A DNA stretch of 64,000 nucleotides, from the NCBI RefSeq assembly GCF_055900595.2, contig NZ_CM148325.1; one strand, given 5' to 3'. The stretch's first letter is position 1. Every line of letters begins with the position of its first letter. Below the pieces are notes generated by a model. The model worked only from the letters and a program-made list of their open reading frames with translations, did no database searches and was not told the origin of the DNA. Positions 8,461 to 21,591 of this stretch are shown in pieces. Made by a program: the position numbers and the translations under genes.

Positions 8461-9693
8461 ATGGCAAAGGTATCGCTGGAGAAAGACAAGATTAAGTTTC
8501 TGCTGGTAGAAGGCGTGCACCAAAAGGCGCTGGAAAGCCTTCGTGCAGCGGGTTACACCAACATCGAATTTCACAAAGGCGCGCTGGATGATGAACAATT
8601 AAAAGAATCCATCCGCGATGCCCACTTCATCGGCCTGCGATCCCGTACCCATCTGACTGAAGACGTGATCAACGCCGCAGAAAAACTGGTCGCTATTGGC
8701 TGTTTCTGTATCGGAACGAACCAGGTTGATCTGGATGCAGCTGCAAAACGCGGGATCCCGGTATTTAACGCACCGTTCTCTAATACGCGCTCTGTTGCGG
8801 AGCTGGTAATTGGCGAACTTCTGCTGCTATTGCGCGGCGTACCGGAAGCCAACGCTAAAGCGCACCGTGGTGTCTGGAACAAGCTGGCAGCTGGCTCTTT
8901 TGAAGCGCGCGGCAAAAAGCTGGGTATCATCGGCTATGGTCATATTGGTACACAGTTGGGCATTCTGGCTGAATCGCTGGGAATGTATGTTTACTTTTAT
9001 GATATTGAAAACAAACTGCCGCTGGGCAACGCCACTCAGGTACAGCATCTTTCTGATCTGCTGAATATGAGCGATGTGGTGAGTTTGCATGTGCCAGAGA
9101 ATCCGTCTACCAAAAATATGATGGGCGCGAAAGAGATTTCGCTAATGAAGCCCGGCTCGTTGCTGATTAATGCCTCGCGCGGAACGGTGGTGGATATTCC
9201 GGCACTGTGTGATGCGCTGGCGAGCAAACACCTGGCAGGTGCGGCAATCGATGTCTTTCCGACGGAACCGGCGACCAACAGCGATCCGTTTACCTCTCCG
9301 CTGTGCGAGTTCGATAACGTCCTTCTGACGCCACATATTGGCGGTTCGACTCAGGAAGCACAGGAGAATATCGGTCTGGAAGTTGCAGGTAAATTAATCA
9401 AGTACTCTGACAATGGCTCAACGCTCTCTGCGGTGAACTTCCCGGAAGTCTCGCTGCCACTGCATGGTGGGCGTCGTCTGATGCACATCCACGAAAACCG
9501 TCCGGGCGTGTTAACTGCGCTGAACAAAATCTTCGCCGAGCAGGGCGTTAACATCGCTGCACAGTATCTGCAAACCTCAGCGCAGATGGGTTATGTGGTT
9601 ATTGATATTGAAGCTGACGAAGACGTTGCCGAAAAAGCGCTGCAGGCAATGAAAGCTATTCCGGGCACCATTCGCGCCCGTCTGCTGTACTGA
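8461..9693 (+). CDS. serA: D-3-phosphoglycerate dehydrogenase
   Basis: 410-aa ORF MAKVSLEKDKIKFLLVEGVHQKALE with a C-terminal ACT domain. Confidence 0.95.
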   Translation: MAKVSLEKDKIKFLLVEGVHQKALESLRAAGYTNIEFHKGALDDEQLKESIRDAHFIGLRSRTHLTEDVINAAEKLVAIGCFCIGTNQVDLDAAAKRGIPVFNAPFSNTRSVAELVIGELLLLLRGVPEANAKAHRGVWNKLAAGSFEARGKKLGIIGYGHIGTQLGILAESLGMYVYFYDIENKLPLGNATQVQHLSDLLNMSDVVSLHVPENPSTKNMMGAKEISLMKPGSLLINASRGTVVDIPALCDALASKHLAGAAIDVFPTEPATNSDPFTSPLCEFDNVLLTPHIGGSTQEAQENIGLEVAGKLIKYSDNGSTLSAVNFPEVSLPLHGGRRLMHIHENRPGVLTALNKIFAEQGVNIAAQYLQTSAQMGYVVIDIEADEDVAEKALQAMKAIPGTIRARLLY

Positions 9694-9715
9694 TCTCCCT
9701 TCTTTAATAATCAAC

Positions 9716-9744
9716 GGGCAAGTCACTGGCTTGCCCGTTTTTTT
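9716..9744 (+). terminator. rho-independent terminator of serA
   Basis: GC stem gggcaagtcactggcttgccc followed by a T7 run. Confidence 0.6.
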
Positions 9745-10455
9745 GTGCACAGAAAACCCCCAGCTAGGCTGGGGGTTCCGGAAAGCTTTCAGCTTTGAGC
9801 CAGTTATTAAAACCCCTTTTGATTTGTTAAAACACCTTGCGGTCTGGCAACTGCAAGTGTCAAACAAGAAATCAAAAGGGGGTCCCAATGGGGGACGAAA
9901 AGAGCTTAGCGCACACCCGCTGGAACTGTAAATATCACATAGTTTTTGCGCCGAAATACCGAAGACTGGCGTTTTACGGAGAGAAGCGTAGGGCGATAGG
10001 CAGTATTTTGAGAAAGCTGTGTGAGTGGAAAAGCGTACGGATTCTGGAAGCAGAGTGCTGCGCAGATCATATCCATATGCTTGTGGAAATCCCACCCAAA
10101 ATGAGCGTATCCGGCTTTATGGGATATCTGAAAGGGAAAAGCAGTCTGATGCTTTACGAGCAGTTTGGGGATTTGAAATTCAAATACAGAAACAGGGAGT
10201 TCTGGTGCCGAGGGTACTATGTCGATACGGTGGGTAAGAACACGGCGAAGATACAGGACTACATAAAGCACCAGCTTGAAGAGGATAAAATGGGGGAGCA
10301 GTTATCGATTCCATATCCGGGCAGCCCGTTTACGGGCCGTAAGTAACGAAGTTGAATGCAAATGTCAGATCGTATGCGCCTGTTAGGGCGCGGCTGGTAA
10401 CAGAGCCTTACAGGCGCATTTGAAAAACCTCCGGCTATGCCGGAGGATATTTATT
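9745..10455 (+). mobile_element. IS200-type insertion sequence (IS200/IS605 family); boundaries approximate
   Basis: Single 152-aa tnpA; perfect palindrome cccccagc-tag-gctggggg at 9757-9775 on the upstream side and two hairpins downstream (about 10374-10420 and 10428-10447); no terminal inverted repeats, as expected for IS200. Confidence 0.7.
9888..10346 (+). CDS. tnpA: IS200 transposase TnpA (Y1 HuH transposase)
   Basis: ATG at 9888 within ORF 9837..10346; protein MGDEKSLAHTRWNCKYHIVFAPKYRR...ADHIHML...RGYYVDTVGKN matches IS200 TnpA, including the HxH motif and the C-terminal tyrosines. Confidence 0.9.
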   Translation: MGDEKSLAHTRWNCKYHIVFAPKYRRLAFYGEKRRAIGSILRKLCEWKSVRILEAECCADHIHMLVEIPPKMSVSGFMGYLKGKSSLMLYEQFGDLKFKYRNREFWCRGYYVDTVGKNTAKIQDYIKHQLEEDKMGEQLSIPYPGSPFTGRK

Positions 10456-10599
10456 ATCCCTTTTCCCGCGCATGTCACTGCCATTTGTAATGCGCTGCAA
10501 TTGCCTTTGCGAGTCTGCTCGAAGAAATAAATCAAAGCCAGATCAATGCGTTGTGCTTATTTAAAGAGAGTTTACGATGGCAGGGCAGCATGGGGCTGT

Positions 10600-10743
10600 A
10601 ACGGTAAAGCCCTCACCGAAGCGAGGGCTTGAAGGAGAAGGGTTATGATGCGACTCGTCATCATACTGATTGTACTGTTACTGATAAGTTTGCCAGCTTA
10701 TTAACAGTCAGTCACAGGGGAGGAGTCATCCTCCCTTACCCTT
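10600..10743 (-). ncRNA. sibC: SibC antisense sRNA (antitoxin of ibsC); ends approximate
   Basis: Minus-strand sigma70-like promoter (TTGACA at 10779-10774, 17-bp spacer, TAATTT at 10756-10751) reading across ibsC; hairpin gccctc-accgaag-cgagggc at about 10611-10630. Confidence 0.5.
10645..10704 (+). CDS. ibsC: type I toxin IbsC (19-aa hydrophobic peptide)
   Basis: atgatgcgactcgtcatcatactgattgtactgttactgataagtttgccagcttattaa encodes MMRLVIILIVLLLISLPAY, preceded by the Shine-Dalgarno gaaggagaag; located between serA and fau as in K-12. Confidence 0.7.
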   Translation: MMRLVIILIVLLLISLPAY

Positions 10744-10804
10744 ACTCACTAAATTAGGTTAAAGAATCAACGATGTCAATCAGGGCGATGCAGGTGTGTC
10801 GCCC

Positions 10805-11353
10805 TTACCACTCCCAGACTTTCGACGGTGTAACCACCGCAGGAAGTGGGATATCCCACTCTTCAACGGGGAGTTTTTCCACCAACTGACAATCATGCGC
10901 ATAACCCACCGGTTGCATTTGATAGCTCTGCCAGTTTTGTAAGGTCCGATCATAAAAACCACCGCCCATTCCCAGGCGCTGACCGTACTCATCAAAGGCG
11001 ACCAGCGGTGTGATCAACACGTCTAATCGGGAAAGGGGTAGCACGTCACGCACATCCAGTTTTGGCTCATGGATCTTCAACCTGTTCATCACCAGTTCGC
11101 TTTGCGGATGGTAATTCAGGAACAGCAAATTACCGGCACTAAAGGGATGCAAAACTGGAAGATATACGCGCTTACCGGCGCGCCAGAGTTGTTCTATGAG
11201 TGGCTGGGTGTCGAGTTCGCCATCAAAAGAGAGGAATACAGCGACCGTATGTGCCATCACCACCGGGGGATACGTCATCATCCGGGTAGCGGCTTGTTGA
11301 CCCATTTCCTGCTGTTGTTCCGGCGTTAACGCACGACGACGTTGCCGAATCAT
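10805..11353 (-). CDS. fau: 5-formyltetrahydrofolate cyclo-ligase
   Basis: ORF 10805..11407; ATG at 11351-11353 gives 182 aa beginning MIRQRRRALTPEQQQEMGQQ; directly downstream of ssrS. Confidence 0.85.
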   Translation of the reverse strand: MIRQRRRALTPEQQQEMGQQAATRMMTYPPVVMAHTVAVFLSFDGELDTQPLIEQLWRAGKRVYLPVLHPFSAGNLLFLNYHPQSELVMNRLKIHEPKLDVRDVLPLSRLDVLITPLVAFDEYGQRLGMGGGFYDRTLQNWQSYQMQPVGYAHDCQLVEKLPVEEWDIPLPAVVTPSKVWEW

Positions 11354-11425
11354 TTTGCGGATTTCTTGTCGAGATAATGTCAGTGGGATTTCTGGTAGTT
11401 GCGTCATGGCTGGTGCCAGATAAGA

Positions 11426-11611
11426 AGGGAATCTCCGAGATGCCGCCGCAGGCTGTAACCCTTGAACCCTTGGTTCAAGGTGAATGTGTCGTCACAGTTT
11501 TAAGGCTTCTCGGACGGACCGAGCATGCTCACCAACCGCGGAGCGCCACATTCTTGTGGTATGAAATATCGGCTCAGGGGACTGGCCCGCTTGCGAACAT
11601 CTCAGAGAAAT
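11426..11611 (-). ncRNA. ssrS: 6S RNA
   Basis: Reverse complement begins AUUUCUCUGAGAUGUUCGCAAGCGGGCCAGUCCCCUGAGCC and ends ...CAUCUCGGAGAUUCCCU, matching E. coli 6S RNA; 3' end good to about 2 nt. Confidence 0.92.
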
Positions 11612-11652
11612 TTTGTCTTCACGGTTACTCTACCACAGTAAACCGAAAAGTG

Positions 11653-12048
<396 letters not shown>

Positions 12049-12149
12049 CTATAGCTACCCTGATGAGAAGAGACAAGCCCTTTTCTGGTCCACCAGGGCC
12101 CAAAGTGGTAGCATATCATGAATATTCCTCCCTTTGACGACGAATGCTT

Positions 12150-12728
12150 ATGTCTATACAGAACGAAATGCCTGGTTACAACGAAATGAACCAGTATCTG
12201 AACCAACAAGGGACGGGTCTGACCCCTGCTGAGATGCATGGTTTAATCAGTGGGATGATATGTGGTGGTAACGATGACAGCTCATGGCTGCCGCTGCTTC
12301 ACGACCTGACGAACGAAGGCATGGCTTTCGGTCATGAGCTGGCACAGGCATTGCGCAAAATGCACTCTGCTACCAGCGATGCCCTGCAGGATGACGGCTT
12401 CCTTTTTCAGCTTTATCTGCCTGATGGCGATGATGTCAGCGTTTTCGATCGGGCTGATGCGCTGGCAGGTTGGGTTAATCACTTCCTGCTTGGTCTTGGC
12501 GTTACGCAACCGAAGCTGGACAAAGTGACCGGCGAAACCGGTGAAGCCATCGACGATCTGCGTAACATCGCGCAGCTGGGCTACGACGAAGACGAAGATC
12601 AGGAAGAGCTGGAAATGTCGCTTGAAGAGATCATCGAGTACGTCCGTGTTGCCGCGCTGTTATGCCACGACACCTTTACTCATCCGCAACCGACCGCGCC
12701 AGAAGTACAAAAACCGACTCTACACTAA
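12150..12728 (+). CDS. ygfB: UPF0149 family protein YgfB
   Basis: ORF 12144..12728; the 192-aa protein begins [18 protein letters not shown] at the third codon. Confidence 0.85.
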
Positions 12729-12753
12729 AAACAAAAAACGTAAGGAGAGTGTT

Positions 12754-14079
12754 ATGAGTGAGATATCCCGGCAAGAGTTTCAGCGTCGCCGTCAGGCCCT
12801 GGTGGAGCAAATGCAACCCGGCAGCGCCGCGCTGATTTTTGCTGCACCAGAAGTAACACGTAGCGCCGACAGCGAATACCCCTATCGTCAGAACAGTGAC
12901 TTCTGGTACTTCACCGGCTTTAACGAACCGGAAGCGGTGCTGGTGCTGATTAAAAGTGATGACACTCATAACCACAGCGTTCTGTTTAACCGCGTACGCG
13001 ACCTGACGGCAGAGATCTGGTTTGGTCGCCGCTTAGGTCAGGATGCTGCACCGGATAAACTGGGCGTTGATCGCGCACTGGCGTTCAGCGAAATCAATCA
13101 GCAACTTTATCAACTACTTAATGGTCTGGATGTGGTGTACCACGCCCAGGGCGAATATGCATATGCTGATGAAATCGTGAACAGCGCGCTTGAAAAACTG
13201 CGTAAAGGTTCGCGACAGAATCTCACCGCCCCGGCAACGATGATCGACTGGCGTCCCATTGTTCATGAAATGCGCCTGTTCAAATCACCAGAAGAGATTG
13301 CCGTACTTCGCCGCGCGGGGGAAATCACCGCCCTGGCGCATACCCGGGCGATGGAAAAATGCCGTCCGGGAATGTTCGAGTACCATCTGGAAGGCGAAAT
13401 TCACCACGAATTTAACCGCCACGGTGCGCGCTATCCGTCCTATAACACCATTGTCGGCAGCGGTGAAAACGGCTGCATTCTGCACTACACCGAAAACGAG
13501 AGTGAACTGCGCGACGGTGACCTGGTGTTGATTGACGCGGGTTGTGAATACAAAGGTTACGCGGGCGATATTACCCGCACCTTCCCTGTTAACGGTAAAT
13601 TCACTCAGGCTCAGCGTGAAATCTACGACATTGTGCTGGAGTCTCTTGAAACCAGCCTGCGCCTGTATCGTCCGGGAACGTCCATTCAGGAAGTCACCGG
13701 TGAAGTGGTGCGCATCATGGTTAGCGGCCTGGTAAAACTCGGCATCCTGAAAGGTGATGTTGATGAACTGATCGCTCAGAACGCCCATCGTCCTTTCTTT
13801 ATGCATGGCCTTAGCCACTGGTTAGGACTGGATGTCCATGACGTTGGCGTTTATGGCCAGGATCGCTCGCGCATTCTGGAACCGGGCATGGTACTGACCG
13901 TAGAGCCGGGGCTGTATATTGCGCCGGATGCAGAAGTGCCAGAACAATATCGCGGTATCGGCATTCGTATTGAAGACGACATTGTGATTACCGAAACCGG
14001 TAACGAAAACCTCACCGCCAGCGTGGTGAAAAAGCCGGAAGAAATCGAAGCGTTGATGGCATCTGCGAGAAAGCAATGA
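12754..14079 (+). CDS. pepP: Xaa-Pro aminopeptidase (aminopeptidase P II)
   Basis: ATG at 12754 after Shine-Dalgarno taaggagag; 441 aa beginning MSEISRQEFQRRRQALVEQM; the upstream part of ORF 12541..14079 is a spurious extension across ygfB. Confidence 0.92.
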   Translation: MSEISRQEFQRRRQALVEQMQPGSAALIFAAPEVTRSADSEYPYRQNSDFWYFTGFNEPEAVLVLIKSDDTHNHSVLFNRVRDLTAEIWFGRRLGQDAAPDKLGVDRALAFSEINQQLYQLLNGLDVVYHAQGEYAYADEIVNSALEKLRKGSRQNLTAPATMIDWRPIVHEMRLFKSPEEIAVLRRAGEITALAHTRAMEKCRPGMFEYHLEGEIHHEFNRHGARYPSYNTIVGSGENGCILHYTENESELRDGDLVLIDAGCEYKGYAGDITRTFPVNGKFTQAQREIYDIVLESLETSLRLYRPGTSIQEVTGEVVRIMVSGLVKLGILKGDVDELIAQNAHRPFFMHGLSHWLGLDVHDVGVYGQDRSRILEPGMVLTVEPGLYIAPDAEVPEQYRGIGIRIEDDIVITETGNENLTASVVKKPEEIEALMASARKQ

Positions 14080-21492: not shown

Positions 21493-21591
21493 GCCTGATG
21501 CACCTCGTTTATCAGGCCTACATAGTCTGTGCAATGTATTGAATTTGCACGATCTTGTAGGCTGGATAAGGCGTTCACGCCGCATCCGGCA
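21493..21591. repeat. BIME: two inverted REP units
   Basis: gcctgatgcacctcgtttatcaggcctaca and tgtaggctggataaggcgttcacgccgcatccggca match the REP consensus in opposite orientations. Confidence 0.65.

What the first reader, a model, noticed from the sequence alone, without database searches (positions are those of the whole stretch)
10600..10745. ibsC/sibC type I toxin-antitoxin locus
A 19-codon hydrophobic ORF (MMRLVIILIVLLLISLPAY) has a strong Shine-Dalgarno sequence and a convergent minus-strand promoter that would give a fully overlapping antisense RNA. This matches the known Ibs/Sib family; the peptide here differs at two residues from the K-12 IbsC sequence as I recall it.
Basis: partly seen in the sequence, partly recalled or inferred. 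Interest (0 to 1): 0.35.

Follow-up and report, generated by a model that had tools for sequence, protein, structure and literature searches.

The report
Known Ibs/Sib toxin-antitoxin locus, variant allele
This is an ordinary, already catalogued Ibs/Sib type I toxin-antitoxin module (a 19-residue membrane toxin gene fully covered by an antisense antitoxin RNA) sitting at the usual sibC position between serA and fau, and its two amino-acid differences from the K-12 toxin fall in the RNA loop that sets toxin-antitoxin pairing specificity.

Summary
The observation and the interpretation both hold. Window 10645-10704 (+) encodes MMRLVIILIVLLLISLPAY behind an AAGGAG Shine-Dalgarno sequence. The minus strand matches Rfam SIB_RNA at 135.9 bits (cut-off 56). 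The peptide matches Pfam Ibs_toxin at 39.7 bits (cut-off 27).

Alignment to the annotated K-12 sibC places the antitoxin RNA at 10743->10603 (141 nt, +1A), with a TTGACA-17-TAATTT promoter. The locus lies between serA and fau, as in K-12, and occurs in 5424 of 5426 complete E. coli genomes.

This 4-nt block is Sib +49..+52, in the apical loop of the TRD1 recognition hairpin (Han et al. 2010). It is the only multi-base variable site in the transcribed units I aligned, with alleles FS, FG, FP and LP.

LP is a minority allele (345 of 7295 copies). It is mostly the fau-proximal copy of the O157:H7 tandem, and RefSeq annotates it as 'Ibs family toxin' (WP_100635201.1).

The window carries one copy, in a rare divergent Escherichia lineage, with an IS200 inserted about 130 bp upstream of the ibs transcription start. 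Nothing here is new in kind. Interest is low.

The parts
10551..10578 (+). Inferred ibs promoter: -35 TTGTGC (10551-10556), 16-nt spacer, -10 TACGAT (10573-10578)
   Evidence: Positioned from the ibs start site deduced below. The -10 and the start site are identical to K-12, and only the spacer differs (AAAGAGAG vs AATGGGGA). I chose the hexamers myself. Figure 4B of Han 2010 could not be viewed.
10585..10743 (+). ibs toxin mRNA (159 nt), by homology to the K-12 ibsC mRNA
   Evidence: Han 2010 (PMC2943612) reports a 159-nt mRNA with an 18-nt 5' overhang beyond the SibC 3' end, and mRNA G50/G51/G53 pairing with SibC C110/C109/C107. On the window these map to G10634, G10635 and G10637, giving +1 = 10585. 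Both routes agree. The 3' end was only predicted in that paper.
10632..10637 (+). Shine-Dalgarno AAGGAG, 7 nt upstream of the ATG
   Evidence: Read directly from the sequence.
10645..10704 (+). ibs toxin ORF, 19 codons plus stop: MMRLVIILIVLLLISLPAY
   Evidence: Translation. Pfam PF13956 Ibs_toxin gives 39.7 bits against a cut-off of 27 over all 19 profile positions, with the peptide padded by the upstream in-frame codon (V) to reach the tool's 20-aa minimum. An identical 19-aa gene on GCA_043978215.1 carries a precomputed PF13956 hit. The identical protein WP_100635201.1 is annotated in RefSeq.
10718..10735 (+). GGGAGGA-GTCA-TCCTCCC hairpin near the ibs mRNA 3' end (its complement is the P2 hairpin of Sib)
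   Evidence: Folds. Compensatory changes occur in this stem among Sib paralogues.
10751..10779 (-). sib promoter: -35 TTGACA (10779-10774), 17-nt spacer, -10 TAATTT (10756-10751)
   Evidence: Alignment to K-12 upstream of the annotated sibC start. There is a single spacer difference (G->A). The Rfam model's first ~35 positions cover this promoter.
10603..10743 (-). Sib antitoxin RNA, 141 nt, +1 = A at 10743
   Evidence: Gapless alignment with K-12 sibC, NC_000913.3 3056851-3056991. Rfam SIB_RNA scores 135.9 bits. MFE is -54.7 kcal/mol with z = -5.3. The consensus structure of 9 Sib RNAs has 42 pairs, 10 of them with compensatory changes.
10676..10698 (-). TRD1 (Sib +46..+68), whose apical loop +48..+55 is CUGGCAAA; the variable block +49..+52 (UGGC here, GCUG in K-12) is the complement of codons 16-17
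   Evidence: TRD coordinates come from Han 2010. The loop position comes from the folds.
10629..10645 (-). TRD2 (Sib +99..+115), whose single-stranded J1/7 segment is complementary to the SD and start codon; identical to K-12
   Evidence: Han 2010, alignment, and unpaired +107..+113 in the fold.
10607..10630 (-). Sib terminator hairpin (+114..+137), followed by UUUACC
   Evidence: Fold. There are 4 compensatory pairs among the paralogues. The K-12 annotated 3' end falls just after it.

Best explanation
This is a type I toxin-antitoxin module of the Ibs/Sib family at the chromosomal sibC locus, between serA and fau.

The plus strand gives a ~159-nt mRNA (about 10585-10743) for a 19-residue hydrophobic inner-membrane peptide. 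The minus strand gives a constitutive 141-nt antisense RNA (10743->10603) that is perfectly complementary to the ribosome-binding site and the whole ORF.

The antisense RNA first contacts the mRNA through one of two elements. TRD1 is a loop that targets codons 11-18. TRD2 is a single-stranded segment that targets the SD and AUG. Pairing then spreads, which blocks translation and leads to mRNA decay, so the toxin is normally not made. If made in excess, the peptide depolarises the membrane and stops growth.

What is shown here: the sequence anatomy, membership of both families, synteny, conservation across the species, RNA structure with covariation, and the location of the two amino-acid differences in the TRD1 loop.

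What is inferred from K-12 and Salmonella experiments: transcription, repression, toxicity, and the likely NAD capping of the +1A Sib transcript.
For: Family and anatomy:
- Rfam SIB_RNA scores 135.9 bits against a cut-off of 56.
- Pfam Ibs_toxin scores 39.7 bits against a cut-off of 27.
- The ORF and SD are intact.
- Sib promoter, start site and terminator align without gaps to the annotated K-12 sibC. Nine positions differ within the 141-nt RNA and one in the promoter spacer.

Position and conservation:
- Gene order is serA-ibs/sib-fau-ssrS-zapA, as in K-12.
- The locus is present in 5424 of 5426 complete E. coli genomes, with an annotated Ibs CDS under every sampled match.
- The same ORF occurs in Escherichia sp. 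E1V33.

RNA structure:
- The fold is stable, with z = -5.3.
- The consensus structure has 10 of 42 pairs with compensatory changes.

Published mechanism:
- Han 2010, PMC2943612.
- Review PMC8309996 on depolarisation and alpha-helix formation.
- SibC NAD capping with +1A, PMC12956327.
Against: There are no expression or toxicity data for this strain or this allele. F16L is absent from all five K-12 Ibs peptides. According to the review of Mok 2010, residues 6-19 matter for IbsC toxicity, so reduced toxicity cannot be excluded. Pro17, however, is natural in IbsB and IbsE.

Both promoters are weak matches to consensus in one hexamer, and the generic scan did not flag either. NCBIfam gave no hit. 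The primary papers, Fozo 2008 and Mok 2010, were not available to read.
Confidence: 0.93

Rival explanations
1. Same family, different history. The window's copy is not the orthologue of K-12 ibsC but the surviving fau-proximal paralogue of a two-copy (tandem) ancestor that lost the serA-proximal copy by recombination.
For: The peptide is identical to the fau-proximal copy of O157:H7 (WP_100635201.1). The ibs promoter spacer (AAAGAGAG) and the T in the sib promoter spacer match the 'copy 2' units rather than K-12 or 'copy 1'. Tandems occur in 1868 of 5426 genomes.
Against: The far-upstream flank (10456-10545) is a third type. It is neither the inter-copy spacer nor the K-12 flank.

Alleles are not tied to position: in the O145 strain the FS allele is the fau-proximal copy.

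Escherichia sp. E1V33 and E. whittamii each have a single copy with the LP-type loop. This fits single-copy LP being ancestral rather than derived by deletion.
Confidence: 0.2
2. Decaying module. The Sib RNA is kept, but the toxin is inactive (F16L/S17P) or not expressed, so the locus no longer acts as a toxin-antitoxin pair.
For: The C-terminal residues contribute to IbsC toxicity according to the review of Mok 2010. A real example of decay exists: E. whittamii lacks 11 nt, GTTATGATGCG, spanning both start codons just downstream of an intact SD, while sib stays intact. [quoted passage not shown]
Against: The SD, both ATGs, the frame, the stop, the -10 and the start site are all intact. The same LP peptide is kept unchanged in 345 genomes and in another Escherichia species. 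Pro17 is normal in IbsB and IbsE. Leu for Phe keeps the position hydrophobic.
Confidence: 0.05
3. Chance ORF. Only the sRNA is real, and the 19-codon frame is an accident of the antisense sequence.
For: The ORF is very short, and the ORF lister reports dozens of short frames in this region.
Against: The Pfam hit has E = 4e-10 over the full profile. The frame, the SD and the 18-19 codon length are preserved in all five K-12 paralogues and in all ten sibC-locus units examined. Outside codons 16-17 the substitutions are synonymous (codons 4 and 13), apart from one V5A.
Confidence: 0.01

Closest known systems
E. coli K-12 ibsC/sibC (b4665/b4446)
   Same: It has the same genomic position between serA and fau, the same 141-nt Sib length and the same +1A. 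The -35, the -10, TRD2, the terminator, the SD and 17 of 19 residues are identical.
   Different: Nine positions differ within the RNA: Sib +17, +18, +30, +49-52, +61 and +88. Five of them lie in TRD1, including the 4-nt loop block that changes F16L/S17P. The upstream flank is of a different type, and an IS200 lies next to it.
Fau-proximal Ibs/Sib copy of the O157:H7 tandem (WP_100635201.1, 'Ibs family toxin')
   Same: The peptide and the TRD1 loop are identical, and the 241-bp unit is 99.2% identical.
   Different: In O157:H7 it is the second of two tandem units, and the partner unit (..SFGAY) differs in both TRD1 (3 nt) and TRD2 (1 nt). The window has a single unit.
K-12 IbsD/SibD and IbsE/SibE (also IbsA/B)
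   Same: They share the family, the architecture and the secondary structure. SibC, SibD and SibE all start with A and are NAD-capped in K-12.
   Different: They lie at other loci (yqiK-hldE, yegL-mdtA), carry K3 instead of R3, and have different TRD1 and TRD2 sequences.
Salmonella IbsA/SibA
   Same: It is a 19-aa Ibs toxin repressed by an overlapping Sib RNA.
   Different: A preprint reports a specific target, the Fo a/b subunits of ATP synthase, dependent on His3. The window peptide has Arg3, so that mechanism cannot simply be transferred.

Membership tests
Sib antitoxin RNA (Rfam RF00113) | Sequence and structure match to the covariance model at or above the gathering score | tested here: met
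   135.9 bits against 56, E = 7e-28, model positions 1-147 of 147.
Sib antitoxin RNA (Rfam RF00113) | Conserved multi-hairpin fold closed by stem P1, with a terminator hairpin and covariation support | tested here: met
   The MFE fold has the same architecture as K-12 SibC. The consensus of 9 Sib RNAs has 42 pairs, 10 with compensatory changes.
Sib antitoxin RNA (Rfam RF00113) | Own promoter and ~140-nt transcript antisense to the whole ibs ORF and ribosome-binding site | tested here: met
   The promoter, +1A and 3' end align without gaps to the annotated K-12 sibC, and the transcript span 10743-10603 covers the SD and the ORF. This is sequence evidence only.
Sib antitoxin RNA (Rfam RF00113) | Abundant ~140-nt RNA detected in vivo | not testable with these tools
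   No transcriptome data are available. K-12 SibC is detected in the literature.
Ibs toxin (Pfam PF13956) | An 18-19-residue hydrophobic peptide matching the family profile above the cut-off | tested here: met
   39.7 bits against 27 over profile positions 1-19 of 19. The query was padded with one upstream residue to meet the 20-aa input minimum. A precomputed PF13956 hit exists on the identical gene.
Ibs toxin (Pfam PF13956) | Toxic on overexpression (membrane depolarisation) and repressed by the cognate Sib | not testable with these tools
   Known for K-12 IbsC only.
sibC locus (position) | Lies in the serA-fau(ygfA) intergenic region, with ibs on the serA strand | tested here: met
   serA is at 8461-9693 (+) and fau at 10805-11407 (-), followed by ssrS and zapA. 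The order is the same in K-12 and strain 2020CK-00188.
IbsC/SibC in the strict K-12 allele sense | TRD1 recognition sequence (Sib +46..+68) identical to K-12 SibC | tested here: not met
   Five of 23 nt differ (+49-52 and +61). The peptide differs at F16L and S17P. PGAP names this protein 'Ibs family toxin', not IbsC.
IbsC/SibC in the strict K-12 allele sense | TRD2 recognition sequence (Sib +99..+115) identical to K-12 SibC | tested here: met
   All 17 nt are identical. An unbroken identical stretch runs from +89 to the 3' end.

The most novel reading that the evidence does not exclude
Codons 16-17 of ibs, which are the apical TRD1 loop of Sib, may act as a population-level specificity dial. 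Four main alleles (FS, FG, FP, LP) circulate at one locus in E. coli. They are shuffled between single and tandem arrangements. Selection would then act on RNA-RNA discrimination rather than on the peptide.

On this reading, the window's LP allele is the state shared with other Escherichia species and forms a recognition class partly insulated from K-12 SibC. This extends the paralogue-level finding of Han et al. 2010 to allelic variation. It does not reveal a new kind of system.
Probability: 0.3. Interest if true: 0.3.

Novelty: already known. Interest (0 to 1): 0.12.

Why it matters
It matters little beyond correct annotation. Ibs genes are too short for most gene callers, so confirming the module, its transcript boundaries and its allele is useful bookkeeping.

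The one point of modest interest concerns the two residues that distinguish this toxin from K-12 IbsC. They are encoded by the four bases of the Sib loop that experiments identified as a determinant of cognate-pair recognition, and this block is the main variable site at the locus across more than 5,000 E. coli genomes. If pursued, that would give a natural allelic series for testing how antisense RNAs avoid cross-talk.

Tried and rejected
Tools and sources that gave nothing:
- The generic promoter/terminator scan flagged neither real promoter. It reported two promoter-like sites inside the ORF on the minus strand (10696-10669 and 10687-10660). That is 2 found against 0.6 expected, with no homology support, so I treat them as chance.
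- NCBIfam gave no hit for either the window peptide or the K-12 peptide. PGAP presumably names these peptides by other rules.
- Fozo 2008 (PMC2597788) and Mok 2010 (PMC3009890) are not held. Statements about toxicity and residue requirements rest on Han 2010 and a review.
- PMC11264685 does not mention ibs.

Features considered and set aside:
- A 30-aa minus-strand ORF (10572-10664) lies inside Sib. It starts in the palindromic ATGATGA/TCATCAT hairpin and has no SD. I rejected it as a by-product of the antisense sequence.
- IS200 read-through driving ibs is possible in principle, because tnpA is on the same strand. However, a terminator-like hairpin at 10428-10446 sits at the IS200 right end, so I did not adopt this idea.

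Rfam boundaries are not transcript boundaries:
- The Rfam hit (10779-10629) includes the promoter and omits the terminator.

Full report
**Observation**

Window 10645-10704 (+) reads ATGATGCGACTCGTC...TTGCCAGCTTATTAA and translates to MMRLVIILIVLLLISLPAY*. AAGGAG lies at 10632-10637, 7 nt upstream of the first ATG. The ORF lister did not report the ORF only because that tool's floor is 20 aa.

A scan of the whole window against Rfam found SIB_RNA (RF00113) on the minus strand at 10779..10629. The score was 135.9 bits against a gathering score of 56, with E = 7e-28 and the full model matched. There is no other Sib copy in the 64 kb.

The peptide was padded with the upstream in-frame codon (V) to reach the tool's 20-aa minimum. 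It then matches Pfam PF13956 Ibs_toxin at 39.7 bits against a cut-off of 27, over all 19 profile positions. The K-12 peptide, padded the same way, gives 45 bits.

The feature is real and far beyond chance.

**Anatomy by homology to K-12**

Gene order in the window is serA (8461-9693, +), ibs/sib, fau/ygfA (10805-11407, -), ssrS 6S RNA (11428-11611, -), zapA, ygfB. K-12 has the same order, with sibC (b4446, 141 nt) and ibsC (b4665) between fau and serA.

A gapless alignment of the window with K-12 transfers the annotated ends:

- Sib +1 is the A at 10743 and the 3' end is 10603 (141 nt).
- The -35 is TTGACA at 10779-10774, followed by a 17-nt spacer and the -10 TAATTT at 10756-10751.
- The only promoter difference from K-12 is one spacer base.

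The Rfam hit boundaries are shifted because that model includes the promoter and omits the terminator.

Han et al. 2010 (PMC2943612) give three relevant facts about the ibsC mRNA. It is 159 nt long. Its 5' end overhangs the SibC 3' end by 18 nt. Its G50/G51/G53 pair with SibC C110/C109/C107.

Both relations place the ibs start at window 10585, because G10634, G10635 and G10637 are the SD guanines. The mRNA would then span 10585-10743. I infer a weak promoter for it, TTGTGC-16-TACGAT at 10551-10578.

The same paper defines TRD1 as Sib +46..+68 and TRD2 as +99..+115. On the window these are 10698-10676, inside the ORF at codons 11-18, and 10645-10629, over the SD and the start codon.

**RNA structure**

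The window's Sib folds to -54.7 kcal/mol (z = -5.3 against shuffles). Its architecture matches K-12 SibC:

- a closing stem P1 (+1-6 with +101-106);
- three internal hairpins;
- a single-stranded +107-113;
- a terminator hairpin at +114-137.

A consensus fold of nine Sib RNAs (the window, four other sibC-locus alleles, and K-12 SibA, B, D and E) has 42 pairs, 10 of which show compensatory double changes.

**The two amino-acid differences**

On the Sib strand this is +49..+52, GCUG -> UGGC. It lies in the 8-nt apical loop (+48..+55) of the TRD1 hairpin. Han et al. mutated these same positions (G49CU51 -> UGC) to retarget SibC to ibsD.

Overall, TRD1 differs from K-12 at 5 of 23 nt. TRD2 is identical, and the identical stretch runs from +89 to the 3' end. 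Han et al. found that either TRD alone suffices for repression. I therefore expect K-12 SibC would still repress this ibs through TRD2. That is an inference.

**Population context**

The 241-bp unit is present in 5424 of 5426 complete E. coli genomes, with 7295 copies in total. In 1868 genomes the locus is a tandem of two units about 390 bp apart.

Across ten units from seven genomes, the transcribed region is nearly invariant. The exception is the 4-nt block in codons 16-17, which gives ..SFSAY..SFGAY..SFPAY and ..SLPAY. The other ORF changes are synonymous (codons 4 and 13), apart from one V5A.

Allele-specific 38-mers gave these copy counts:

| Allele | Copies |
|---|---|
| FS | 2168 |
| FG | 1844 |
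| FP | 2791 |
| LP | 345 |

LP is thus about 5% of copies. Most of the listed LP records are O157:H7 or similar large cattle- and beef-associated genomes. In the one examined in detail, strain 108, it is the fau-proximal unit next to a serA-proximal ..SFGAY unit. In that tandem the two units differ in both TRD1 (3 nt) and TRD2 (1 nt).

RefSeq annotates the LP peptide as WP_100635201.1, 'type I toxin-antitoxin system Ibs family toxin'. Seven Ibs genes were already counted in O157:H7 Sakai by Fozo et al. 2010 (PMC2887945).

Neither the allele nor the copy-number variation is new.

**The window's haplotype**

The window has a single unit. Its upstream flank (10456-10545) is a third type, found in only 68 genomes, and only 4 of those exceed 95% identity.

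The closest complete genome is strain 2020CK-00188. It is 100% identical over the unit and 99.75% over 10450-13300.

Window 10458-12907 is identical to a contig of GCA_043978215.1, which ends at the IS200 edge.

The window's serA is 90-95% identical to serA in 5399 of 5425 E. coli genomes, and above 95% in only 26. The sequence therefore comes from a rare divergent lineage.

A pattern scan of species-representative genomes gave the following:

- Escherichia sp. E1V33 has the same LP ORF, base for base, as a single copy.
- E. whittamii has a single copy with the LP-type loop. It lacks 11 nt (GTTATGATGCG) that span both start codons just downstream of the intact SD, while sib is intact.

This makes it plausible that single-copy LP is an old state in the genus rather than a recent deletion product. 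I did not build a phylogeny to test that.

**Mechanism**

The following rests on published K-12 work. Sib RNAs are constitutive ~140-nt antisense RNAs. Ibs peptides are toxic when overproduced. Repression is specific to the cognate pair and is accompanied by mRNA decay.

IbsC overexpression depolarises the membrane within minutes and induces the psp operon. K-12 SibC starts with A, is largely NAD-capped in stationary phase, and its synthesis is stimulated by ppGpp/DksA.

The window keeps the +1A, and its promoter differs by one spacer base. The same behaviour is therefore likely, but it is inferred.

A preprint assigns Salmonella IbsA a specific target, the ATP synthase Fo a/b subunits, dependent on His3. 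The window peptide has Arg3, so that result should not be transferred.

**Rivals**

- A decayed toxin is unlikely. All expression signals are intact. The LP peptide is conserved unchanged in 345 genomes and in another species. Pro17 is normal in IbsB and IbsE.
- A chance ORF is excluded by the profile match and by conservation of the frame across paralogues.
- Whether the unit is 'the' orthologue of K-12 ibsC or the survivor of a tandem is a question of history, not of function. Alleles are not tied to position, because the FS allele is the fau-proximal copy in an O145 strain. Orthology within this locus is therefore ill-defined.

**Verdict**

This is a known family at a known locus, carrying an already annotated allele.

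The only added value is the precise mapping of the parts, and the note that the two differing residues coincide with the TRD1 specificity loop, which is the main variable site of the locus across E. coli. Interest is low.

Noticed in passing
window 9745-10455: An IS200 (IS200C-type) is inserted directly after the serA terminator T-run and about 130 bp upstream of the inferred ibs start. It carries a 152-aa tnpA at 9888-10346 (+), and Rfam STnc490 matches its left end at 9755-9878 with 146 bits. Only one of 5426 complete E. coli genomes (EcPF15, with the FP allele) has an IS200 at the same site and in the same orientation, and the two IS copies are only 96% identical.
   Followed up: partly
window 10428-10446: A terminator-like hairpin (CCTCCGGCTATGCCGGAGG) sits at the right end of IS200 and scores as a terminator on both strands. 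It lies between tnpA and the ibs promoter and would limit read-through into ibs.
   Followed up: no
window 8461-9744: serA and its terminator are unusually divergent. They are 90-95% identical to 5399 of 5425 complete E. coli genomes and above 95% to only 26, whereas the 8 kb downstream of ibs/sib is 95-99% identical to every genome (98.1-98.4% in the twelve best). The window therefore comes from a rare divergent Escherichia lineage or has a recombination boundary near the ibs/sib locus.
   Followed up: partly
L013 4659-5002 (Escherichia whittamii Sa2BVA5): At the same locus, E. whittamii keeps an intact sib promoter, Sib body and LP-type TRD1 loop. An 11-nt deletion (GTTATGATGCG) just after the SD has removed both ibs start codons. 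This is a natural example of a toxin pseudogene with a retained antitoxin RNA.
   Followed up: partly
L005 2151-2684 (E. coli strain 108), L006, L008: The serA-fau locus is a tandem of two Ibs/Sib units in 1868 of 5426 complete genomes. There are at least three spacer types (at least 99%, 90-95% and 80-90% identical to the spacer of strain 108) and different allele combinations: FG+LP, FG+FP(A5) and FP+FS.
   Followed up: partly
window 11428-11611 (-): 6S RNA (ssrS) is found at 138 bits, in its normal place between fau and zapA.
   Followed up: no
window 21514-21556 (-): There is a borderline Rfam hit to ES036 (CssrF) sRNA, at 38.4 bits against a gathering score of 37.6.
   Followed up: no
E. 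coli genome searches: One record classed as a plasmid carries the whole serA-ibs/sib-fau region. It may be a mis-assigned replicon or an F-prime-like element. Two of the 5426 genomes lack the ibs/sib unit.
   Followed up: no
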